Virus record (IMG/VR): IMGVR_UViG_2778261644_000010
DNA from: a virus
Lineage: Duplodnaviria > Heunggongvirae > Uroviricota > Caudoviricetes
Strand: one strand, 5' to 3'
Length of the DNA stretch: 37,198 nt
Part shown: positions 1,532 through 19,314 of the stretch, in pieces
How positions within the stretch are numbered: the first letter of the stretch is position 1
How the letters are laid out: each line of letters opens with the position of its first letter
Position numbers and translations under genes: made by a program
Notes under the pieces: model-generated
What the model was told of the DNA's origin: nothing
Databases searched by the model: none
Seen by the model: only the letters and a program-made list of their open reading frames with translations

Positions 1532-1741
1532 TTAATTTGAATACAATGCAATTCTCGAGGACTGAAGTTTCTCGCAATTAAAATTTATCAGTTTTACTTT
1601 CTGCTCTCTGGAAACGCCTGCTTCTTTTTTACCTGAGAGCATTTTTTCGCATTCTGATTTCGTTAGTTTAGATTTTGAATATCTTGTCCAGTTAGTAGGA
1701 GTGCCACCTTCCTTTTCAATAGTGGCGGTAATTTTATACAT
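1532..1741 (-). CDS. ydaC: Rac prophage small protein YdaC
   Basis: ORF trimmed to the internal Met (MYKITATIEKEGG), giving 69 aa. Overlaps the ralR stop by 8 nt, as in the Rac early-left operon. Confidence 0.55.
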   Translation of the reverse strand: MYKITATIEKEGGTPTNWTRYSKSKLTKSECEKMLSGKKEAGVSREQKVKLINFNCEKLQSSRIALYSN

Positions 1742-1984: not shown

Positions 1985-2794
1985 TTATTCCTCTGAATTA
2001 TCGATTACACTGTATTCCCCGGTTAATACAGAGGAATCTGCAGGATCGATTGTCAGTGGTTCCTTTTCATCCATTGATACTGCACGCTGGATCTCAATTG
2101 ATACGGGCAGATATTTGAACAGGCGACGAATAGCCGTTTTCTTTGCCATTTCTTCCCAGTGAGTTACCCACGGCCCGTTATTACCAGCTTTACTCAGGCT
2201 GCGCACCAGCTCAATCTGTTTGCGCGTCATAACTTCAAACTGAGTACCTCCGTCTTTCAGTCTTGCGACAGCATAGACGTGGGTAACCGGGGCATCTTCG
2301 TTTTCTCCCGGGCGGTGTATTAACTTTTCATCAAGGCCAAATTCGAAGCTAAACTCGTCACCTTCACGGACAACACGGGCTGACAGGCTGGCGATTTGAC
2401 CAGAACGGCGAGCCAGATCAATCATGCCGCGATAGCCAATGATTAGCTGAACGTTCTTTTTACCGCTCTTTTCGTTTTTATTACCAAAAGGCAGTAAATA
2501 TGCATGACCGAGGGCGCTACCTGGCTCAAGTCCGAGCTGTGAACACTGTACGATCGCACTGACAAAACTCATAGTGTCACAGTTTCCTAACGCCGGAACT
2601 TTACGAATTTCTGTGGTGGCGATACGGATCATACGTTCAGCCGTCATATGGCGTGGAAGAGCTGCTGCCAGTTGCTCTTTCATTGATGGCTGGTTAATAA
2701 AACTAATCACGTCGCTATTTTTAACTGCTGCTGGTGCACGGTTTCCCTGAGTTTTTTGCAGATCGGCTTTTGCGATTGGTGGTTGCTTAGTCAT
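1985..2794 (-). CDS. recT: Recombinase RecT (single-strand annealing protein)
   Basis: 269-aa product starting [16 protein letters not shown], recognised as RecT. Overlaps the recE stop by 8 nt. Confidence 0.9.
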
Positions 2795-5387
2795 TTGCAT
2801 ATTCCTTAGCCCAGCGGGGCAGTGATAATGTCTTAATAGCTGGCCATTCATCGGTATTCAGGCAGTCAGACAGGGTTCGCAGATTGCGGTGATATTCCTG
2901 TTGACCTGCCAGTTTTGCTTCTTCGCCCATCATGAAAATTTCAACCGGATAACGTCCGCATTCAATAGTTGTGCTGGCAACCAGAAAAACGAAAGTTGGC
3001 TGCACTCCAAACTGTGCTTCATAACCGTCACTGTAGAATGCATCCTGAACGTGATAGCGGTAGTCGTAATAAGCGGTTTTGAATCGTTGAATATCCGCCG
3101 TAGTTTTCACGTCCATGATCCAGTGAAATTCAGGGATAATTTTGTCCGGACGGCACCGACACAAAATTCCTGTTTCAGGATCTTCCCAGTAAATTGATGA
3201 TTCAGCGTGTCCGGCGCTTTCAACAAGCCATTGCCCCAGCGGCAAAGCCATAACGCTTTGATACATGAGTTCAATTTTCCGGCCTTCTTCCGCAGTGATA
3301 ACCGTTTTTCCTGTGCTTGCGCATTCCATCAGAAACGCTTTCTCTTCTTCTTTTCCGGCGTTTGTACGGCGGTTAAATTCAGGTGCTACGATAAAGCGGT
3401 TACTGAATTCCTCCGGTTCAAGTACCCGGCAGTGGAAAGCGGTTCCTAAATCGAGCGTTTTTGTCTTTGTGGTGTCCACGGGGGCATTTTTACGCCACAA
3501 ATATAGTGCCGGAGTATCAGCAATGTCATCGAGCTGAGACTTACTGACACCGGGACCCGCGTGGTAATTCTCATTCGAAATTCCGTAATAAATACCTGGC
3601 TCTATGTCTTCTACGATTACGGGATCTGCGACTTCTCCAGTTTCATCACTGCAATCGCGATGCGGATCGCTGCCAGCATTCTCATTGTGCGGATGTTCAG
3701 CGCCTTCCATTTCCTCCGGATCATTTTCCTTAGCTTCAACCTGACTCTCTTCATCGAATGTTTCCTGGTATGTTGCGTCGCCCATCACCGCACCACAGTC
3801 AGGGCAGTTATCCCCGCCAGTCTGGCCGCAGGCATTGCAGGCTATTTCCGGTTCCTGTTGCACTACTGGCTCAGGTTGATTCATATCCGGGCTGGTTTTT
3901 TCCGTTTCTGGCTGGTTCTGGTACACAGAATCGCGAGTCTGGATCCCCTTTACCCATTTCGGATCGTTCGGGTCGCTAATTCCGTCAACAAATTCACCAC
4001 GTGATGCAGCAAGCAATTTATCGGCATCGACAGGATTTTTTGATGGAATGTTTTTCCGGGCTTCATGGAGTTCTGCCCGCAGTTCCTGATATTTCGCATC
4101 AACAGAATTTACCTGTGACTGAGCATCCAGCGGCTGCGTGTCCTGATGATGTTCAGTTGCGTCCGGTTCCATTGTTTCAGCCTCTCCCTGTTCAACTGCC
4201 GTTGTTCCAGATGGTTGCGGTTTTTCTTCGTCATCCTGTTTTCCTTCTTCTGTTACTCGCTGCGGCATCGGGGCAGAGGAGCGACCGCAGGCAATATCCA
4301 CGATTTCCGGATCAGGGTTTGCATGATCGGTTTCAGTCAGTACTTTGTTCAGATATTCAGTGACGTGCGCGGGGATGACCTCGATCCCAATTGGTGCTTC
4401 TTTTACGGACGCAACCACGATGGCGCGGGAATAATCCAGCCCGCCAGGCATGGTGATGAATTTGTCGCGGAAAACAGAAAAGGGCGGTTTATTTTCAGCG
4501 ATAATTTCCTCAATGCGTTTAGCGTGTGCCGGATGAAGGTTATAGATGTCCAGATCCATTGAACGGGCCAGTACGCCAGTGGCTACGTCGCGCGCCAGTG
4601 ACGTCAGATCGTGTACGAAACCTTCGCCGCGATCGGTGAGGTTTCCGCCGCCAGCATTAGCACCGGAAGCCGTGCGAGTGATGTGTGAAACACGATTACC
4701 CTTCATCCACTCTTTTGTCAGCAGTCCTCGATCGGTGTAGTCAGCGTTCAGGTATGCTTCGAAAAAAGCAGTTATCAGTCCCAGGTTTGAATTACCAGGA
4801 TTAGGGAAAACTTTGTCAGTGTCACGAACCAGTTTGTGGAGATCGCGAATTTCCAGCGGGTCGAGCAGGCTGGTTTTGTGGGAAACAGCCAGGGCAGTAA
4901 CAGCCGGTAGTTCTTCAGCCCGAGCAATGTGTAATGCCTGGAGTCCGTCGCGTGAAACATGCGTTACCGGTTTTTCGCTGCCGTGTTGAGCAAGCCAGCG
5001 AATGGGCAGTTCCTGGCCAGAAATTGGGAGTAGCATATTCTCCTCAATCTCAGTCATGTCTTCGCCGTTGACGTTGGTATTGCCTTGATAGTGAGCGTTG
5101 TCTGGTGCTGCTCCCGGTTTTAGTTCCCATGTCATGGAGTCTTTGCTGAGTTGATAGCGTTCACTCCAGGTAAAATCGATCTCACCTTCAGCGGGCAGGT
5201 CATTAACGACAGGAAAATTCGTGGCAACAGCTTTAAAATAGCTGCTCAGTTTTTTACCTGACTTAACGATCAGGTAGTCCAGAGTGGCACAGGTCGATTC
5301 AAAATCGTCGCTTGCCCACAGGACGACGTCAGGTTCACCGGATGATTTTTTCGCTTTCCGTAACAGGAAGAGTGGTTTTGTGCTCAT
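2787..5387 (-). CDS. recE: Exodeoxyribonuclease VIII (RecE)
   Basis: 866-aa ORF with an acidic, Pro/Glu-rich central linker and a C-terminal nuclease domain. Length and position upstream of recT match RecE. Confidence 0.9.
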
Positions 5388-5838: not shown

Positions 5839-6015
5839 TTAAAGTTCATGTGCCATCTGTTCTTTTTCGGCACATATTTCACTACAATATTTTTTCATTT
5901 CCGTCGTTGGGATAACTCCACGCATGAAATGAAGTGGTCTTTTAATGCTTTTGCTTTCTTCAATTCCTTTATTGCAAAGGTGGTAAGCACATTTTATTTT
6001 CTTAGTCTTCACCAT
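5839..6015 (-). CDS. ydaE: Small Cys-rich putative zinc-binding protein (YdaE-like)
   Basis: Hand-translated minus-strand ORF absent from the supplied track: [58 protein letters not shown], 58 aa. Lies between racC and kilR as ydaE does in Rac. Confidence 0.55.
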
Positions 6016-6230
6016 GACTCCGCCTTTACAGGTAAACCATCACAACCGAGGAAGACTTTAATCATGCAGTCAGAAATGCATGTTTTTGTAGTCAGGTTAC
6101 GAATATAAAGTTTTCGCTTTTTAATATTGTTTGCCGAGGCGATATATGTCCGGCCTTCATGAAGAACATAATCACCAGGAGTCACACACTGACGTGGTAT
6201 TTCATCAGTTCCGAAGTGATGTGCAATCAT
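6009..6230 (-). CDS. kilR: Cell-division (FtsZ) inhibitor KilR
   Basis: 73-aa product from the internal Met ([15 protein letters not shown]), recognised as KilR. First gene after sieB in the leftward operon. Confidence 0.8.
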
Positions 6231-6670
6231 AATTATCTCCATTTTTACAAATGAACTTTGTTGATGCGGTGCCTGGTGCCTCCAGGTGACTGCAACCAGT
6301 TAACAATTACAGTCGGCTTTCCCACCCAAACCAATAAGGACTAACATGACTTTTAACTGTGCCGCGTGCGCTTAGCCGCATTCACCGCATCACAAAATTC
6401 ACTTTAAAAAGGGCGGACATCAGTCGAACTTCAAGAAAAAACTGATGCCGCCAGGACTACACAAAGCAGTTTTGTTATTCACAACCGGAGGCGCACTCCC
6501 ACCATTTAAATTTAACAGACAAGACCGACTCTTTATGGATATCGGAAATGCGCCTTCGTGTTGTGCCCGGTTTTATTTCACCACCTCCGGGCTTCGGTGG
6601 TCTCTGCTATACCCCTACAGCGAGAGCTTGTGTTAACATTTCAATACCCTTACAGTCGAGAGTTATTGAT

Positions 6671-7159
6671 ATGTTGGATGTATTTACTCCATTGTTGAAA
6701 CTTTTTGCTAACGAACCACTCGAAAGACTTATGTATACGATTATCATTTTGGGTCTCACTCTCTGGCTGATACCGAAAGAGTTTACTGTCGCATTCAATG
6801 CTTATACTGAAATACCTTGGCTCTTTCAGATTATCGTTTTTTCCTTTTCTTTCGTGGTCGCCATTTCTTTCTCAAGATTGCGAGCACATATTCAAAAGCA
6901 TTATTCATTACTACCAGAGCAACGAGTATTGCTTCGTTTATCTGAGAAAGAAATCGCTGTATTTAGAGATTTCCTTAAAACAGGAAATCTTATTATCACT
7001 TCTCCTTGCCGTAACCCGGTTATGAAAAAATTAGAACGGAAGGGCATCATTCAACATCAGAGTGATAGCGCAAACTGTTCTTATTATCTCGTCACCGAAA
7101 AATACTCCCATTTTATGAAGTTATTCTGGAACAGCAGGAGTAGACGTTTTAATCGTTAG
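6671..7159 (+). CDS. sieB: Superinfection exclusion protein B (SieB)
   Basis: 162-aa product starting MLDVFTPLLKLFANEPLERL with hydrophobic N-terminal segments. Plus-strand gene embedded in the leftward operon, as for lambda and Rac sieB. Confidence 0.8.
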   Translation: MLDVFTPLLKLFANEPLERLMYTIIILGLTLWLIPKEFTVAFNAYTEIPWLFQIIVFSFSFVVAISFSRLRAHIQKHYSLLPEQRVLLRLSEKEIAVFRDFLKTGNLIITSPCRNPVMKKLERKGIIQHQSDSANCSYYLVTEKYSHFMKLFWNSRSRRFNR

Positions 7160-7311
7160 CTTACTGTGTGCTTCTCCAACCATCGGCGCGCACCAGTTTC
7201 GGTTTTAAATGTTTTGCTTTTGGTATACGTCATGGCAGTGAACGTTCCATCCTGGTTGGGGAATACGCCGCACACCAGGGATTCGTTATTGCCGAGGTCG
7301 ATTTTTTGCAT
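7156..7311 (-). CDS. ydaF: Small prophage protein YdaF
   Basis: Hand-translated 51-aa ORF MQKIDLGNNESLVCGVFPNQDGTFTAMTYTKSKTFKTETGARRWLEKHTVS. Convergent with sieB and overlapping it by 4 nt. Confidence 0.6.
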   Translation of the reverse strand: MQKIDLGNNESLVCGVFPNQDGTFTAMTYTKSKTFKTETGARRWLEKHTVS

Positions 7312-7321
7312 TTTTCGCACC

Positions 7322-7456
7322 TCACATTTTGTTGTTGCGGATAGAGGCTTCTGCCTGCCAGAGATCCCAGTCGTTGCTGCGTAGAGCCTGTACAGCCTGG
7401 CTGTAAGTGATATCGCAACAATCCATCAAATACTGAACTACTTCGTAATGCACCAT
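7322..7456 (-). CDS. ydaG: Small prophage protein YdaG
   Basis: Hand-translated 44-aa ORF MVHYEVVQYLMDCCDITYSQAVQALRSNDWDLWQAEASIRNNKM. The supplied track gives a different frame here. First gene downstream of the putative leftward promoter. Confidence 0.6.
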   Translation of the reverse strand: MVHYEVVQYLMDCCDITYSQAVQALRSNDWDLWQAEASIRNNKM

Positions 7457-7619
7457 CTTATCTCTCCCCTTAACGCCGGGTGGCGGAACTAACTGCTGCA
7501 CTGCAAAATTTGAATCCCGCCGTCATGTTCATACGCCTCGGGCTGGCTACTTAACCCCTGACCACTGCCTGGTAACTCGAAGTATTGCCCTGCGTTCTGT
7601 GGGGCGGGGTGGGTTGGTA

Positions 7620-7675
7620 AGTATATAATGTACATTGTGTTCATTGTTGTAAAGTACTTTAAGTACATTTTATGT
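7620..7675. promoter_or_regulatory. Putative leftward promoter/operator region with GTAC-core palindromes
   Basis: Perfect 10-bp palindromes AATGTACATT (7628-7637) and AAAGTACTTT (7651-7660), plus AAGTACATTT (7661-7670), between the repressor gene and ydaG. The ATGTAC core recurs in the repressor/cro divergent region. Confidence 0.4.
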
Positions 7676-7743
7676 GTAAAAAAATGAGATGGGATAAAGT
7701 GAAGCACAAACCCGGAGGGGGACGCTACCGGATTTATGCTGGT

Positions 7744-8163
7744 TTAAGAGGCTTTTTGTTTTTTCTTTCGTGCTAACTCTTCGTAAATTGCATTGTACTT
7801 CTGTTTTTTCTCCTCAAGAGTTTTTAAAAGTTCATCTGTCTCACTGTCAGGGAGCTCGTCCAGAAGGTCAATGATGATTTTTTGTCTTGGATTTAACTCC
7901 TGATAGAAACGTACCTGTCCACTTTCTTCTGTATCCTCTCCCAAAAGATAGGTTGGTGTTGTTCCAATGAGTGTTGCTAATTCCCTTAATTTCTCTCGGC
8001 GAGGAATTGTTTCGCCATTAAACCATTTGCTAACCGCTTTTGGTGTTAATTTCATTCGACGGGCAATTTCTGCCTGCCTTCCATGTTGTTCATAACCAGC
8101 GTTTTCACAGGCTAGCGCAAGCCTACTGGCGAACTCTTTACGCGCTTTATCTTCATGAACCAT
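7744..8163 (-). CDS. Prophage repressor, XRE/CI-type HTH
   Basis: 139-aa ORF with an HTH segment (LTPKAVSKWFNGETIPRREKLRELATLIG), transcribed divergently from a Cro-like gene. An in-frame TGA two codons upstream of the ATG fixes the start. Confidence 0.8.
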   Translation of the reverse strand: MVHEDKARKEFASRLALACENAGYEQHGRQAEIARRMKLTPKAVSKWFNGETIPRREKLRELATLIGTTPTYLLGEDTEESGQVRFYQELNPRQKIIIDLLDELPDSETDELLKTLEEKKQKYNAIYEELARKKKQKAS

Positions 8164-8242
8164 AAGTTCAATGATATTCGCTCTTGAATGTACTGTCAGT
8201 TCTGTTATAGCATGTACTCAAAGTTCACATTGTGAGGGTGAT
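8164..8242. promoter_or_regulatory. Putative rightward operator / divergent promoter region
   Basis: 79-bp divergent intergenic region with repeated ATGTACT motifs (8188-8194 and 8212-8218) matching the GTAC-core palindromes of the leftward region. Confidence 0.45.
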
Positions 8243-8497
8243 ATGAACCAGAAAACACTTGAAGATGTAATCAAAACTGTTCGCGTTTCTGTTGTGGCCG
8301 ACGTTTGTGGTGTCAGCCAAAGAGCAATCTACAAATGGATGGATAACGGAAAACTGCCTCGCACAGAATATACCGGCGAAACAAATTACGCTGAAAAAAT
8401 CGCTCATGCATCAAACGGATTATTTTCTGCCGATGCAATTTTAACTATTGGCAAAAATAAAACTACTACGAAAAAGCTGATGGGAGTTGATTCATGA
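8243..8497 (+). CDS. ydaS: Cro-like HTH regulator (YdaS-like)
   Basis: Start chosen at the ATG preceded by GAGGGTGA (MNQKTLEDVIK), 84 aa. Sits opposite the repressor, with an HTH-like segment (VADVCGVSQRAIYKWMDNGKLP). Overlaps ydaT by ATGA. Confidence 0.6.
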   Translation: MNQKTLEDVIKTVRVSVVADVCGVSQRAIYKWMDNGKLPRTEYTGETNYAEKIAHASNGLFSADAILTIGKNKTTTKKLMGVDS

Positions 8498-8916
8498 AAA
8501 TCAAGCATGAGCACATCGAATCAGTGTTGTTAGCCCTGGCAGCCGAAAAAGGGCAGGCATGGGTAGCCAATGCAATTACTGAAGAATATCTGCGCCAGGG
8601 GGGCGGCGAATTGCCCCTGGTTCCAGGCAAGGACTGGAACAATCAGCAGAATATCTATCACCGTTGGTTGAAAGGTGAAACGAAAGCGCAAAGGGAAAAA
8701 ATTCAGAAATTGATCCCTGCGGTTCTGGCAATTCTTCCTCGCGAGCTGCGTCACCGACTCTGCATCTTCGATACCCTGGAACGCCGTGCATTACTGGCGG
8801 CGCAGGAAGCGTTGAGTACGGCAATTGATGCGCATGATGATGCAGTCCAGGCCGTTTACCAGAAAGCGTATTTCAGCGGCGGCGGGTCTTCCGAAGATTC
8901 TGTCATTGTTCATTAA
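8494..8916 (+). CDS. ydaT: YdaT (CII-like/toxic prophage protein family)
   Basis: 140-aa product starting MKIKHEHIESVLLALAAEKGQAWVANAITEEYLRQGGGELPLVPGKDW, recognised as YdaT. Start overlaps the ydaS stop. Confidence 0.75.
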   Translation: MKIKHEHIESVLLALAAEKGQAWVANAITEEYLRQGGGELPLVPGKDWNNQQNIYHRWLKGETKAQREKIQKLIPAVLAILPRELRHRLCIFDTLERRALLAAQEALSTAIDAHDDAVQAVYQKAYFSGGGSSEDSVIVH

Positions 8917-8928
8917 GCAAAATTTTCC

Positions 8929-9786
8929 ATGCTGTTTGTGCTTATTCTAAGCCACCGGGCAGCATCATACGGGGCAATTATGGCCGCATTACCATACATG
9001 CAACTGTACATAGCTGATTACCTGGCTGACACCATGCATTTGTCAGCAGAGGAGCACGGTGCGTATTTGTTGCTGATGTTCAATTACTGGCAAACAGGAA
9101 AGCCAATACCCAAAAACAGGCTGGCAAAAATTGCCCGTCTGACTAACGAGCGATGGGCTGATGTTGAACCATCCTTGCGGGAGTTTTTTTACGATAACGG
9201 CGAGGAATGGGTGCATCTTCGGATTGAGGAAGATCTGGCATCAGTCAGGGAAAAATTAACCAAAAAATCAGCCGCAGGAAAAGCATCTGTTCAGGCCAGA
9301 AGAAGCAGAAAGGAAGCAGATGTTCAAACAAAACAAGAGAGAAATTTAACAGGTGTTCAAACAGATGTTGAAGTGGTGTTTGAACATGATGTCAACACAA
9401 AGGCAACTAATAAAGATACAGATAAAGATCTAAAAACAGATCCCCCCCTAAATCCCCCCCGGGGGAATCGAGGTGTTAAAAAGTTTGACCCTCTGGATAT
9501 TGCTTTGCCGAACTGGATTTCTGTCTCGCTTTGGCGTGAGTGGGTTGAATTTCGCCAGGCATTGCGTAAACCGATTCGAACGGAGCAGGGCGCTAACGGG
9601 GCGATACGGGAGCTGGAAAAATTCCGCCAGCAGGGTTTTTCACCTGAGCAGGTGATTCGATACAGCATCGCCAATGAATACCAGGGCTTGTTCGCGCCAA
9701 AAGGTGTTCGACCTGAGACGTTACTCCGACAGGTTAACACCGTCTCGTTACCGGATAGTGCGATCCCGCCAGGCTTCAGGGGGTAA
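8929..9786 (+). CDS. ydaU: Replication initiation-associated protein YdaU (DUF1376-like)
   Basis: 285-aa ORF immediately upstream of the DnaC-like gene. Length and position match Rac ydaU. Contains a Pro-rich linker encoded by two C7 tracts. Confidence 0.7.
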   Translation: MLFVLILSHRAASYGAIMAALPYMQLYIADYLADTMHLSAEEHGAYLLLMFNYWQTGKPIPKNRLAKIARLTNERWADVEPSLREFFYDNGEEWVHLRIEEDLASVREKLTKKSAAGKASVQARRSRKEADVQTKQERNLTGVQTDVEVVFEHDVNTKATNKDTDKDLKTDPPLNPPRGNRGVKKFDPLDIALPNWISVSLWREWVEFRQALRKPIRTEQGANGAIRELEKFRQQGFSPEQVIRYSIANEYQGLFAPKGVRPETLLRQVNTVSLPDSAIPPGFRG

Positions 9787-9792
9787 CTGACC

Positions 9793-10539
9793 ATGAAAAA
9801 TATTGCGGCAGGCGGCATTCTTGAACGTATCCGCAGACTGGCCCCGCCACATGTAACCGCCCCATTCAAAACGGTAGCGGAGTGGCGCGAGTGGCAACTT
9901 TCCGAAGGCCAGAAACGTTGTGAGGAGATCAACCGTCAGAATCGTCAGTTGCGGGTGGAAAAAATTCTGAACCGCTCTGGCATCCAGCCATTGCACCGCA
10001 AATGCTCGTTTGCGAATTACCAGGTGCAGAACGACGGTCAGCGATACGCGTTGAACCAGGCGAAATCTATCGCTGATGAACTGATGACCGGGTGTACAAG
10101 TTTTGCGTTCAGCGGAAAACCTGGTACCGGAAAAAACCATCTGGCGGCGGCTATCGGGAATCGCCTGCTGAAAGATGGCCAGACAGTGATTGTGGTTACC
10201 GTGGCTGATGTCATGAGTGCTCTACACGCCAGCTATGACGACGGGCAATCAGGCGAAAAATTTTTGCGGGAACTGTGCCAAGTGGATCTGCTGGTTCTTG
10301 ATGAAATTGGCATTCAGCGCGAGACAAAAAACGAGCAGGTGGTGCTGCACCAGATTGTTGATCGCCGGACAGCGTCGATGCGCAGCGTGGGGATGCTGAC
10401 AAACCTGAACTATGAGGCCATGAAAACATTGCTCGGCGAGAGGATTATGGATCGCATGACCATGAACGGCGGGCGATGGGTGAATTTTAACTGGGAGAGC
10501 TGGCGTCCGAATGTCGTCCAGCCAGGAATTGCGAAGTGA
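9793..10539 (+). CDS. ydaV: DnaC-like replication helicase loader (YdaV)
   Basis: 248-aa ORF with Walker [16 protein letters not shown] and Walker B-like [10 protein letters not shown]. Typical IstB/DnaC-type AAA+ protein. Confidence 0.85.
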
Positions 10540-15709: not shown

Positions 15710-16223
15710 TTCAGGTGTTAACGTCAGTTCCTCGCTCAAAGCGGACTGGAAGGTTAGCTTGCGTCGGACTTGGCGTATTTAAAGAAGTGCTGGTGGTGAC
15801 TGGTTGCTGTGTCCCATTTCCACAGAAAAAATCTGAGAAGTTATACCCATTCGTTGTATTGAATCACTGACGAGACAGCATCATATTTATCAGGGCTGGT
15901 GTAGGTCCAATACAGGAGGTTGTGGTGCTGGTTCTCAAATGCGCGCTGGCTATTGCGGCTGTAATGGCAATTTATTGTCTTGCTATTGCTCTTATGGATC
16001 ACCTTTCTGATTGATTTCATACTGGCGAGGTAACGGGGGTTAAGTAGTATGGCTTCGGGTGCTTGAGGCTATCTGCCTTGGGCATGAAAACCAACGGCAG
16101 ATAGAAAAAGCCCCAGTTGATATTACGCATCTGGCAAGAGGCTTAACATTAATCTGGGGCCCAATCTATGCCTTACTAACGTAGGTTAGTCTCTTACGTT
16201 AGTAAGGCAAGAAGAAGCGGGCT

Positions 16224-16379
16224 ATGAAGCAGCAAAAGGCGATGTTAATCACCCTGATCGTCATCTGTTTAACCGTTATAGTGACGGTACTGGTAACGAG
16301 GAAAGACCTCTGCGAGGTACGAATCCGAACCGACCAGACGGAGGTCGCTGTCTTCACAGCTTACGAACTTGGGGAGTAA
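16224..16379 (+). CDS. Hok/Gef-family type I toxin (51 aa)
   Basis: Hand-translated MKQQKAMLITLIVICLTVIVTVLVTRKDLCEVRIRTDQTEVAVFTAYELGE, which closely matches recalled Hok/RelF-type toxins. Upstream hairpins CCTTACTAACGTA/TACGTTAGTAAGG and CTATCTGCC/GGCAGATAG resemble hok mRNA fold-back elements. Confidence 0.8.
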   Translation: MKQQKAMLITLIVICLTVIVTVLVTRKDLCEVRIRTDQTEVAVFTAYELGE

Positions 16380-18378: not shown

Positions 18379-19314
18379 ACGTCAGGAAAGCAGGGGAGAA
18401 TGCTGCTAGTTGGGCAACTGGTCTTTCTGCTCCAAATTATAACAGAGACCAGTTATAGTTTCGGTGCTGTGTTTTTTTACAATATTGTGATAACACATTG
18501 CTGGCGGGAGTTTTGATATTTCTTGGCAGGGGCTGATGATGCGTTATCCTGATGTCGTCAACTCATATAAAATGAGATGAGAGATCATTGCAGGGTGGTT
18601 TGTAATTCGCTGTTTAGCGGGACAATATGTTGTCTGATACAAGACACCCGACGCCTCAGATTACTATAATAAAGACGAAGCATCCTTTGTATTGACCAAC
18701 CGCCTGTTTAGGCGGTTCTTTTTGGGCTGGTTTATTGTATGCCAAATGATTATTAAAAAGGTTGTGTTAATAACAAAATCCGAAATAATATGCCTGCATA
18801 TTTTTATCTTGCTTATATTCTGCATATTGTGCATAGCAGGCTCATCCCTGCAATCAAAACTGTATGATGAGTATTTTTTGTTTTCCTTTTTTCCAGTCAT
18901 CTGATGATGACCTGCTTCTTTTTAATCCGGATCGACATCAGTTTTTTAAGATAATTCCTGCGAGTTATATGCATAAATGTCACAAACTCCGCATTTTATG
19001 TGGTTGGGAGTTGCCGGGCGCGCAGTGAGTTTGCTAAGAAAACTCCTGCATGGTAAATCCCCCTGTGCGGTGGGGTGATACCATTAACCTTTTCTGTCGC
19101 CGACAGGTATCACGAACATTTTGTTCACCGGGAGGCACCCGGCACCATGCACTTCAATAGATTCTCTCCACATTATGGATATTCTTTCAGAATATCCCAC
19201 GCAGACTTTGTGTAAATGTTAACAAATGTGCGTTTTATTTGATCTGATTCGCTGTTTGAGCGTCCAAAACAACGGTATATATAATCCTTTACTATATGAC
19301 ATATGTGAGGAAAA

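What the first reader, a model, noticed from the sequence alone, without database searches (positions are those of the whole stretch)
7620..8242. Immunity region with GTAC-core palindromic operator candidates at both divergent promoters
The leftward region contains the perfect palindromes AATGTACATT (7628-7637) and AAAGTACTTT (7651-7660) plus AAGTACATTT (7661-7670). The repressor/cro divergent region contains ATGTACT twice (8188-8194 and 8212-8218). Recurrence of one core in both control regions is the pattern expected for operator sets bound by a CI-like repressor and defines a candidate immunity specificity for this prophage.
Basis: seen in the sequence. Interest (0 to 1): 0.4.

Follow-up and report, generated by a model that had tools for sequence, protein, structure and literature searches.

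The report
HK022-type operators in Rac-like prophage
The GTAC repeats are half of each binding site in an ordinary, already well-known kind of phage on/off switch (the phage HK022 type), here carried by a Rac-like prophage whose repressor lacks the usual self-cleaving domain.

Summary
In detail: five GTAC cores lie in about 130 bp against 0.24 expected. One coordinate is off by one. The units were misread. The repeated element is a 15-bp dyad, TGWACT-N3-AGTWCA, and each GTAC is one half-site core. The other half-sites are GAAC/GTTC and were missed.

A matrix built from 30 other genomes ranks exactly these five top in the 37-kb window.

Most of 30 related loci, from Enterobacterales to Vibrio, Pasteurellaceae and Pseudomonas, keep the layout. 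Twenty-five have at least three OR sites, spaced 24 and about 33 bp. Twenty-four have a downstream OL cluster. The sites coincide with the operators annotated for HK022-like phage HK75 and a 933W-like phage.

Against K-12 Rac, window 7620-8487 (OL, repressor, OR, cro) is one swapped immunity cassette. The repressor's DNA-binding domain (47%) and Cro (59%) are homologous to HK022's. Its C-terminus is a short helical hairpin, not an S24 peptidase.

Verdict: a new member of a known kind, of low to moderate interest. Binding itself is inferred, not shown.

The parts
7620..8487 (.). Immunity cassette (OL - repressor - OR - cro), exchanged as one block relative to K-12 Rac
   Evidence: blastn: K-12 Rac (L001) is about 97% identical to the window at 6001-7619 and 8488-9928, and unrelated in between. 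Megablast: a 1021-bp query spanning the cassette (window 7480-8500) is covered >=80% in 1047 of 5426 complete E. coli genomes, whereas its left-flanking part (window 7480-7620) matches in 3707.
7629..7643 (.). OL1, weakest site (TGTACATTGTGTTCA); covers the spacer and -10 of PL
   Evidence: PWM from other genomes scores it 12.3 bits, 5th best in the window. It aligns with oL1 of HK75. The 89%-identical variant L043 has TGAACAGATAGTACA at the same place.
7653..7667 (.). OL2 (AGTACTTTAAGTACA), both half-sites GTAC; overlaps the -35 of PL; 24 bp from OL1
   Evidence: 19.2 bits. It aligns with oL2 of HK75. The 24-25 bp spacing of the two promoter-proximal OL sites is seen in 22 of 24 related loci that have an OL cluster.
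7625..7653 (-). PL-like promoter: -35 TTTACA (7653..7648), 17 bp, -10 CATTAT (7630..7625); reads leftward into the ydaG-like ORF, ydaF and on towards kilR/recET
   Evidence: Promoter scan. It is collinear with the annotated pL of HK75 (TTTACA-17-CATCAT). Function is inferred.
7744..8163 (-). 139-aa repressor: HK022-CI-type HTH domain (1-74), linker, C-terminal helical hairpin (92-138); no S24 peptidase domain
   Evidence: Pfam HTH_3, 1.8e-9. 47% identical to HK75 CI over residues 6-102, E 2e-31. The recognition-helix stretch TPKAVSKWFNGE is conserved across the closer homologues, with conservative changes in HK75 (TPKAISKWFNGE) and 933W-like (SSKGVSKWFNAE). AF2 model, mean pLDDT 83. DicA subfamily model matched end to end but below its cut-off. 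100% identical to the 'CI repressor' of phage Tritos.
8156..8170 (.). OR3 (TGAACCATAAGTTCA; on the repressor strand TGAACTTATGGTTCA), centred on the repressor ATG at 8163
   Evidence: Best PWM score in the window, 21.8 bits. Identical to HK75 oR3 and oR1. A site centred on the repressor start (offset 0) is listed in 21 of the 30 related loci; in others, notably the Pasteurellaceae, it lies about 19-24 bp upstream of the ATG.
8171..8199 (-). PRM-like promoter: -35 CTGACA (8199..8194, inside OR2), 17 bp, -10 TATCAT (8176..8171); the predicted start falls on or next to the A of the ATG, giving a leaderless repressor mRNA
   Evidence: Promoter scan, 10 of 12 matches. There is no Shine-Dalgarno sequence before the ATG. 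The same geometry is conserved in related loci. Leaderless repressor mRNAs are shown for RacR (PMC9638921) and PaaR2 (PMC8630535). For this locus it is inferred.
8189..8203 (.). OR2 (TGTACTGTCAGTTCT); fills the PR spacer and contains the PRM -35
   Evidence: 18.7 bits. Equivalent to HK75 oR2, GGAACTGATAGTACA. It lies 33 bp from OR3 and 24 bp from OR1, as in the related loci.
8184..8213 (+). PR-like promoter: -35 TTGAAT (8184-8189), 18 bp, -10 TAGCAT (8208-8213)
   Evidence: Placed by collinearity with the annotated pR of HK75 (TTGACT-18-TAATAT). It is below the threshold of the consensus scan. An alternative reading is the extended -10 TGTTATAGC. Inferred.
8213..8227 (.). OR1 (TGTACTCAAAGTTCA); perfect match to the consensus; covers PR from its -10 into the start region
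   Evidence: 0 mismatches. 18.6 bits. Equivalent to HK75 oR1.
8243..8497 (+). 84-aa Cro homologue
   Evidence: 59% identical to HK75 (HK022-type) Cro, E 2e-32. RefSeq calls the same start. No meaningful similarity to K-12 YdaS.
8487..8504 (.). Perfect YdaT (CII-analogue) box TTGATTCATGAAAATCAA at the cro/ydaT junction, at the right edge of the cassette
   Evidence: 0 mismatches to TTGATT-N6-AATCAA. The motif comes from PMC9986795. Its role in activating a leftward repressor promoter in K-12 Rac is described in PMC11879457.

Best explanation
Window 7620-8487 is a lambdoid immunity cassette of the HK022/933W type inside a Rac-like prophage. The 139-aa repressor presumably binds as a dimer, through an HK022-CI-like helix-turn-helix domain, to five 15-bp dyad operators of consensus TGWACT-N3-AGTWCA.

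At the right operator, OR1 (8213-8227) and OR2 (8189-8203) are 24 bp apart. They cover the -10/start region and the spacer of PR, and so shut off cro, ydaT and the replication genes. OR3 (8156-8170) sits on the start of a leaderless repressor transcript and would give negative autoregulation.

At the left operator, OL1 (7629-7643) and OL2 (7653-7667), also 24 bp apart, cover PL. They silence the leftward operon (ydaG-like ORF, ydaF, and on towards kilR and recET).

The Cro homologue is expected to use the same sites in the lytic direction. Because the repressor has no S24 autopeptidase domain, relief of repression is unlikely to go through RecA-stimulated self-cleavage. The most likely routes are an antirepressor, as for the Gifsy and DicA short repressors, or switch noise.

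Shown here: the sites, their statistics, their conservation, the homology and the cassette borders. Inferred: binding, promoter activity, the leaderless start, cooperativity and the mode of induction.
For: - The pattern ATGTACWNNNWGTTC (up to 1 mismatch) hits only these regions in 37 kb: 4 hits against 0.51 expected, and 0 of 100 shuffles reach 4.
- A matrix built from 85 OR sites of 30 other genomes (the identical locus L003 excluded) ranks exactly the five sites top (21.8, 19.2, 18.7, 18.6 and 12.3 bits; the next is 9.3). The maximum over 200 simulated windows is 18.5.
- In 30 related loci (186.6 kb), 152 of 171 hits fall in the OR zone or in a downstream cluster. 25 loci have at least 3 OR sites, with O1-O2 spacing of 24 bp in 24 of the 25 and O2-O3 of 33 bp in 22 of the 25. 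24 loci have an OL cluster, with 24-25 bp spacing in 22.
- The GenBank operator annotations of HK75 (oR1-3, oL1-3, pR, pL 'similar to HK022') and of a 933W-like phage (OR1-3, OL1-2) coincide with these sites and spacings.
- DNA homology to HK75 covers window 8003-8412 (71%) and OL at 7624-7684 (79%). The OL/PL region aligns base for base.
- The repressor N-terminal domain is 47% and Cro 59% identical to those of HK75.
- In the 89%-identical variant (L043, L044), OR1-3 are unchanged while the bases between them differ.
- K-12 Rac has the same layout with its own motif: 2 RacR sites in OL and 3 in OR, inside the swapped block. RacR sites were footprinted in PMC9638921.
- Cooperative binding and OL-OR looping by HK022 CI are reported in PMC8053113, which cites Carlson & Little 1993.
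- No S24 domain is present.
Against: - No binding, footprint or reporter data exist for this repressor. Everything functional is by homology.
- The consensus used to collect the training sites was first derived from the window, so the matrix test is not fully independent. The fixed positions in other genomes and the independent GenBank annotations are.
- OL1 is a weak match (12.3 bits; 0.28 hits of that score expected per window).
- PR is a poor consensus promoter and was not called by the scan.
- In HK022 CI, cooperativity and looping are functions of the C-terminal domain (established knowledge for lambdoid CI repressors). That domain is replaced here, so pairwise cooperativity and OL-OR looping may not carry over.
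- No LexA box or recognisable antirepressor was found in the window, so the induction route is open.
Confidence: 0.85

Rival explanations
1. One reading: the operators are the 10-bp GTAC-centred palindromes (AATGTACATT, AAAGTACTTT) and the ATGTACT repeats, each recognised as a unit.
For: The strings exist. GTAC is enriched in the two regions, and two are perfect 10-bp palindromes.
Against: Across 30 related loci the symmetry axis lies in the N3 spacer between two GWAC cores. More than half of the half-sites are GAAC, which destroys any GTAC-centred palindrome. OR3 has no GTAC at all, yet it is the best-scoring site in the window and a site at the repressor start recurs in most related loci. 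The annotated HK022-type and 933W-type operators are the 15-bp units. A 10-bp palindrome around one GTAC follows trivially from TGTACA being self-complementary.
Confidence: 0.04
2. The sites are inherited relics. The switch is no longer functional in this prophage, for example because replacement of the C-terminal domain abolished cooperative binding or repression.
For: Rac-type prophages are often cryptic. The repressor lacks the C-terminal domain that gives cooperativity in HK022 CI. PR and OL1 are weak matches.
Against: A query spanning the cassette is covered at least 80% in 1047 of 5426 complete E. coli genomes, at 97-100% identity in the listed full-length hits. The sequenced phage Tritos has a 100%-identical repressor. 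The repressor and cro ORFs are intact. Operators are unchanged in an 89% variant while neighbouring bases vary. The same short-repressor architecture with 3 OR and 2 OL sites is kept in Salmonella at 62-65% identity. The window carries a full set of late genes.
Confidence: 0.08
3. Chance clustering of a short A+T-rich word in A+T-rich intergenic DNA.
For: ATGTAC is not enriched window-wide. The regions were chosen after seeing the motif.
Against: plus independent annotations in other phages.
Confidence: 0.01

Closest known systems
Coliphage HK022 immunity region (CI, Cro, oR1-3, oL1-3); represented here by HK75, GenBank HM173637
   Same: The 15-bp operator is the same, and OR3 is identical in sequence. 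The OR centre spacings are the same (24 and 33 bp). oR3 lies over the cI start. OL2-PL-OL1 are collinear, with -35 TTTACA. The repressor DNA-binding domain is 47% and Cro 59% identical. DNA-level homology covers OR, cro and OL.
   Different: HK022-type CI is 235 aa with an S24 (LexA-like) C-terminal domain. Here the C-terminal half is replaced by a roughly 55-aa helical hairpin. No third OL site lies 53 bp upstream, and no site matching HK022's OFR operator beyond cro appears among the window-wide hits. There are no put sites or Nun. The backbone is Rac-like (recET, kilR, sieB, ydaT/U/V).
Stx phage 933W immunity region (OR1-3, OL1-2); represented here by a 933W-like record, GenBank GQ499365
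   Same: Same operator family and same OR layout (centre spacings 24 and 32 bp). Only two OL sites, as here. The HK022-type DNA-binding domain is joined to a different C-terminal domain, the mosaic principle stated in PMC3202840.
   Different: In the 933W-like record the half-sites usually start with C (CGTAC) and the recognition-helix stretch differs (SSKGVSKWFNAE). Its CI keeps an S24 domain.
K-12 Rac RacR/YdaS switch
   Same: Same prophage backbone and same position. Same logic: 3 dyads with an N3 spacer in the repressor-cro intergenic region, O3 over the repressor ATG, a leaderless repressor promoter (PMC9638921), and 2 sites left of the repressor. The repressor is short and lacks a peptidase domain.
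   Different: The motif is unrelated (WTAGGC-N3-GCCTAW) and absent from this window's control regions. The repressor and Cro are unrelated beyond the HTH.
Short non-cleavable prophage repressors: DicA (Qin), GfoR/GfhR/GtgR (Gifsy)
   Same: About 135-140 aa, with an HTH plus a short helical C-terminus. The DicA subfamily model aligns end to end. These repressors are inactivated by antirepressors rather than by cleavage (PMC3121763, PMC10448788).
   Different: The score is below the DicA family cut-off. The operators are of HK022 type. No antirepressor or LexA box was identified here.

Membership tests
HK022/933W-type lambdoid immunity region | Repressor N-terminal HTH domain homologous to HK022 CI | tested here: met
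   47% identity over residues 6-102, E 2e-31. The recognition-helix stretch TPKAVSKWFNGE compares with TPKAISKWFNGE in HK75.
HK022/933W-type lambdoid immunity region | Three 15-bp dyad operators TGWACT-N3-AGTWCA between divergent repressor and cro genes, centres 24 and about 33 bp apart, the third over the repressor start | tested here: met
   OR1 8213-8227, OR2 8189-8203, OR3 8156-8170. The annotated HK75 and 933W-like operators have the same layout.
HK022/933W-type lambdoid immunity region | Operators of the same type overlapping a leftward PL on the far side of the repressor gene | tested here: met
   OL1 7629-7643 and OL2 7653-7667 over TTTACA-17-CATTAT. There are two sites, as in the 933W-like record.
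HK022/933W-type lambdoid immunity region | Cro homologous to HK022 Cro | tested here: met
   59% identity, E 2e-32.
HK022/933W-type lambdoid immunity region | C-terminal S24 (LexA-like) autopeptidase/oligomerisation domain in the repressor | tested here: not met
   No Peptidase_S24 hit. The alignment ends before the S24 block present in the 221-252-aa relatives. The model shows a helical hairpin at 92-138.
HK022/933W-type lambdoid immunity region | Repressor and Cro physically bind the sites and repress PR and PL | not testable with these tools
   Needs EMSA, footprinting or reporter assays.
DicA / Gifsy-type short antirepressor-controlled repressors | About 135-140 aa, HTH plus short helical C-terminus, no cleavage domain | tested here: met
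   139 aa.
DicA / Gifsy-type short antirepressor-controlled repressors | Passes the curated DicA subfamily model (NF007257) | tested here: not met
   56.8 bits against a cut-off of 101, although the alignment covers 29-137 of the protein and 20-132 of the 135 model positions.
DicA / Gifsy-type short antirepressor-controlled repressors | Cognate small antirepressor, LexA-controlled in the Gifsy phages | tested here: inconclusive
   No CTGT-N8-ACAG, and no match to the 20-bp LexA consensus at up to 3 mismatches, in 37 kb. Small ORFs were not screened, and the prophage may extend beyond the window.
K-12 RacR immunity type | RacR homologue and WTAGGC-N3-GCCTAW operators | tested here: not met
   Only an HTH-level match to RacR, 12 identities in 33 aa. 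No such site lies in the control regions.

The most novel reading that the evidence does not exclude
The repressor's recognition-helix stretch differs from HK022 CI by one conservative residue in the aligned segment, and the operators are almost the same (OR3 is identical). This prophage cassette is covered at least 80% in 1047 of 5426 complete E. coli genomes. It could therefore give SOS-insensitive (non-cleavable) immunity against superinfecting HK022-type phages, or cross-repress them. Equally, an HK022-type CI or Cro could act on the resident prophage. That would be a widespread repressor-level cross-talk between heterologous lambdoid phages, with induction of the resident prophage depending on an as yet unidentified antirepressor.
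Probability: 0.25. Interest if true: 0.4.

Novelty: new member of a known kind. Interest (0 to 1): 0.22.

Why it matters
It gives exact operator and promoter coordinates for an immunity type that is common in E. coli. A 1021-bp query spanning the cassette is covered at least 80% in 1047 of 5426 complete genomes, and phage Tritos carries an identical repressor. So far it is annotated only as 'helix-turn-helix protein'.

It shows that Rac-like prophages exchange the block OL-repressor-OR-cro as one unit. It also documents another case of an HK022-type DNA-binding domain joined to a different C-terminal domain.

This has practical use for predicting immunity groups and for designing reporters. 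It does not challenge current understanding of lambdoid switches.

Tried and rejected
- LexA boxes, as a hint of an SOS-controlled antirepressor: none found.
- Rfam, on the whole window at gathering threshold and on 7300-8300 at E<=1: nothing in the immunity region.
- Fold of the conserved PL leader 7495-7620 (minus strand): no better than shuffles, z = 0.59, so no put- or nut-like structure is supported.
- PDB sequence search: only a weak match to the P22 c2 N-terminal domain.
- Foldseek against the PDB with the AF2 model: generic XRE/HTH folds, none at E<=0.001. It says nothing specific about the C-terminal hairpin.
- A PRE-like promoter near the YdaT box: none called. This is uninformative for an activator-dependent promoter.
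- A third OL site 53 bp from OL2, as in HK022-like loci: absent.
- Primary papers on 933W (PMC524894) and HK022 (PMC206910) are not held. No paper mentions phage Tritos.
- PaaR2/CP-933P was considered as the closest system and rejected, because its repeats (consensus GTTTAGTAA; PMC8630535) are unrelated.

Full report
**Context.** The window is a Rac-like lambdoid prophage: integrase, RalR/RalA, recT, recE (2787-5387, minus strand), kilR/ydaE, sieB (6548-7159), ydaF (7156-7320, minus) and a ydaG-like ORF (7322-7501, minus). Then come a 139-aa HTH_3 protein (7744-8163, minus), an 84-aa HTH protein (8243-8497, plus), YdaT (8494-8916), YdaU, YdaV and late genes. The finding covers the space left of the 139-aa gene and the 79-bp gap between it and the divergent 84-aa gene.

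**Checking the observation.** All quoted strings are present.
- AATGTACATT starts at 7627, one base left of the stated position. The other coordinates are exact.
- GTAC occurs five times in the two control regions, against 0.24 expected from its density in the window.
- ATGTAC as such is not over-represented in the window as a whole.

So the local recurrence is real and not chance.

**What the repeated unit is.** Extending the matches shows a longer repeat. ATGTACWNNNWGTTC with at most one mismatch occurs four times in 37 kb, all in these two regions (0.51 expected). A weaker copy overlaps the repressor start codon (family D4). The unit is a 15-bp dyad, TGWACT-N3-AGTWCA. With at most 2 mismatches the window has ten hits, and the five best are the following:

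| Site | Coordinates |
|---|---|
| OL1 | 7629-7643 |
| OL2 | 7653-7667 |
| OR3 | 8156-8170 |
| OR2 | 8189-8203 |
| OR1 | 8213-8227 |

The other five half-sites are GAAC/GTTC. AAAGTACTTT and AAGTACATTT are the two halves of OL2. AATGTACATT is the left half of OL1. The 10-bp 'palindromes' exist because TGTACA is self-complementary.

**Related sequences.** Homologues of the repressor fall into three groups:
- 139-aa proteins at 88-89% identity;
- Salmonella proteins of about 138 aa at 62-65% identity;
- many 221-252-aa proteins that share the N-terminal domain but carry an S24 peptidase C-terminal domain.

The recognition-helix stretch TPKAVSKWFNGE is conserved across the closer homologues.

A scan of one genome per species returned 35 loci. 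Simply printing the 140 bp upstream of each repressor gene shows the same three dyads in the same register. This holds in Kluyvera, Klebsiella, Enterobacter, Brenneria, Pantoea, Providencia, Vibrio, Photobacterium, Haemophilus, Gallibacterium, Pseudomonas, Salinicola and an alphaproteobacterial MAG.

Quantitatively, in 30 loci (186.6 kb):
- 152 of 171 hits lie either within 100 bp upstream of the repressor start or in a cluster downstream of the repressor gene;
- 25 loci have at least three OR sites, with O1-O2 spacing of 24 bp in 24 of the 25 and O2-O3 of 33 bp in 22 of the 25;
- 24 loci have an OL cluster, and in 22 the two promoter-proximal sites are 24-25 bp apart;
- half-site cores are GAAC 161 times and GTAC 127 times.

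A position matrix built from the 85 OR sites of those genomes (the identical Shigella locus L003 excluded) ranks exactly the five window sites first. Four of them score above the best score seen in 200 simulated windows. One caveat applies: the training sites were collected with a consensus first seen in the window.

**Known phages.**
- The repressor is 100% identical to the 'CI repressor' of Escherichia phage Tritos. It is related to the CI proteins of HK022-like phages and of 933W-type Stx phages.
- The GenBank record of HK75 annotates oR1, oR2, oR3, pR, oL1-3 and pL 'similar to HK022'. A 933W-like record annotates OR1-3 and OL1-2.
- Those features are the same 15-bp units: HK75 oR1 = oR3 = TGAACTTATGGTTCA, identical to the window's OR3, and oR2 = GGAACTGATAGTACA. 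The centre spacings are the same, 24 and 33 bp.
- At the DNA level HK75 matches window 8003-8412 (first 53 codons of the repressor, OR and most of cro; 71%) and 7624-7684 (OL; 79%). The OL2-PL-OL1 stretch aligns base for base.
- Cro is 59% and the repressor N-terminal domain 47% identical to those of HK75.
- HK022 CI binds adjacent operators cooperatively and loops OL to OR (PMC8053113, citing Carlson & Little 1993).
- That the HK022-type DNA-binding domain is recombined with different C-terminal domains is stated for 933W in PMC3202840.

**Cassette borders.**
- K-12 Rac is about 97% identical to the window up to 7619 and again from 8488. The 868 bp between are unrelated. The exchanged block is therefore OL-repressor-OR-cro.
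- K-12 has the same layout with its own motif: TAGGC-N3-GCCTA twice just inside the left border and three times between racR and ydaS. The latter were footprinted as RacR operators, with O3 over the racR ATG and a leaderless promoter (PMC9638921).
- The RacR motif is absent from this window's control regions, and RacR and YdaS are unrelated to the proteins here.
- In an 89%-identical variant of the cassette, the three OR dyads are unchanged while the bases between them differ.
- In the Salmonella relatives a HigB/HTH pair is inserted after the repressor gene, and the two OL sites move with the leftward promoter.

**Mechanism (inferred by homology).**
- PR (TTGAAT, 18 bp, TAGCAT; 8184-8213) has OR2 in its spacer and OR1 from its -10 into the start region.
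- PL (TTTACA, 17 bp, CATTAT; 7653..7625, minus strand) has OL2 on its -35 and OL1 on its spacer and -10.
- The repressor promoter (CTGACA, 17 bp, TATCAT; 8199..8171, minus strand) ends 7 nt before the ATG. No Shine-Dalgarno sequence is present, which predicts a leaderless mRNA. OR3 lies across its start, which predicts autorepression.
- A perfect YdaT box lies at 8487-8504. It is the site type through which the CII analogue YdaT activates a leftward repressor promoter in K-12 Rac (PMC11879457, PMC9986795).

**The repressor's C-terminus.** There is no S24 domain. The AF2 model (mean pLDDT 83) has a five-helix HTH domain (1-74), a disordered linker (77-88) and a helical hairpin (92-138). The NCBIfam DicA model aligns end to end but below its cut-off.

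Short repressors of this build, the Gifsy repressors and DicA, are not cleaved. They are inactivated by antirepressors (PMC3121763, PMC10448788). No LexA box was found in the window. The induction route remains open.

**Verdict.** The units were wrong, one site was missed, and the motif is not private to this prophage. It is the long-known HK022/933W operator type. The locus is a new member of a known kind. The only mildly unusual feature is the peptidase-less repressor on HK022-type operators, together with possible cross-immunity with HK022-like phages.

Noticed in passing
window 8487-8504: A perfect YdaT (CII-analogue) box, TTGATTCATGAAAATCAA, straddles the cro stop and the ydaT ATG. It sits exactly at the right breakpoint of the immunity cassette. 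Eleven hits at up to 2 mismatches occur window-wide against 4.4 expected, but this is the only perfect one.
   Followed up: partly
L001 (K-12 Rac) 2651-2663 and 2676-2688: Two RacR-type dyads (TAGGC-N3-GCCTA) lie 25 bp apart, left of racR and just inside the homology breakpoint. This looks like an OL for RacR in front of the ydaG/ydaF operon. The word ydaG does not occur in the main text of the RacR operator paper PMC9638921, and the passages read deal with the racR-ydaS intergenic region.
   Followed up: partly
L042 4553-5220; L045 4588-5255: Salmonella relatives of the short repressor carry a HigB-toxin/HTH gene pair between the repressor gene and OL. This is the same position as rexAB in lambda or paaA2-parE2 in CP-933P.
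   Followed up: no
window 7502-7619: The leader between PL and the ydaG-like ORF matches in about 3700 E. coli genomes whatever the immunity type. It has no Rfam match and folds no better than shuffles (z = 0.59).
   Followed up: partly
window 8171-8497; L045 4001-4456: Probable start-codon miscalls in public records. Tritos 'Cro' is annotated as the 108-aa ORF that starts inside OR, against 84 aa from the ATG at 8243, which follows a GAGGG Shine-Dalgarno-like sequence. The 151-aa Salmonella repressor (P0015) starts upstream of OR1, whereas the ATG on OR3 gives about 136 aa.
   Followed up: partly
window 1557-1735, 16057-16229, 19018-19204: Rfam hits above gathering score: RalA antitoxin sRNA, a sok antitoxin RNA and STnc100.
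   Followed up: no
L034 3001-3450; L032 3001-3369: Peptidase-less short versions of the same HTH family, with the same three OR dyads, also occur in Salinicola (149 aa) and in an alphaproteobacterial MAG (122 aa). This suggests the S24 domain was lost or replaced more than once.
   Followed up: no
window 7620-8487 against E. coli genomes: None of the 5426 complete E. coli genomes combines this immunity cassette with this exact right-arm backbone. The best long matches start at window 8488 and carry K-12-type racR. An identical repressor locus is in Shigella flexneri CP182557.
   Followed up: partly
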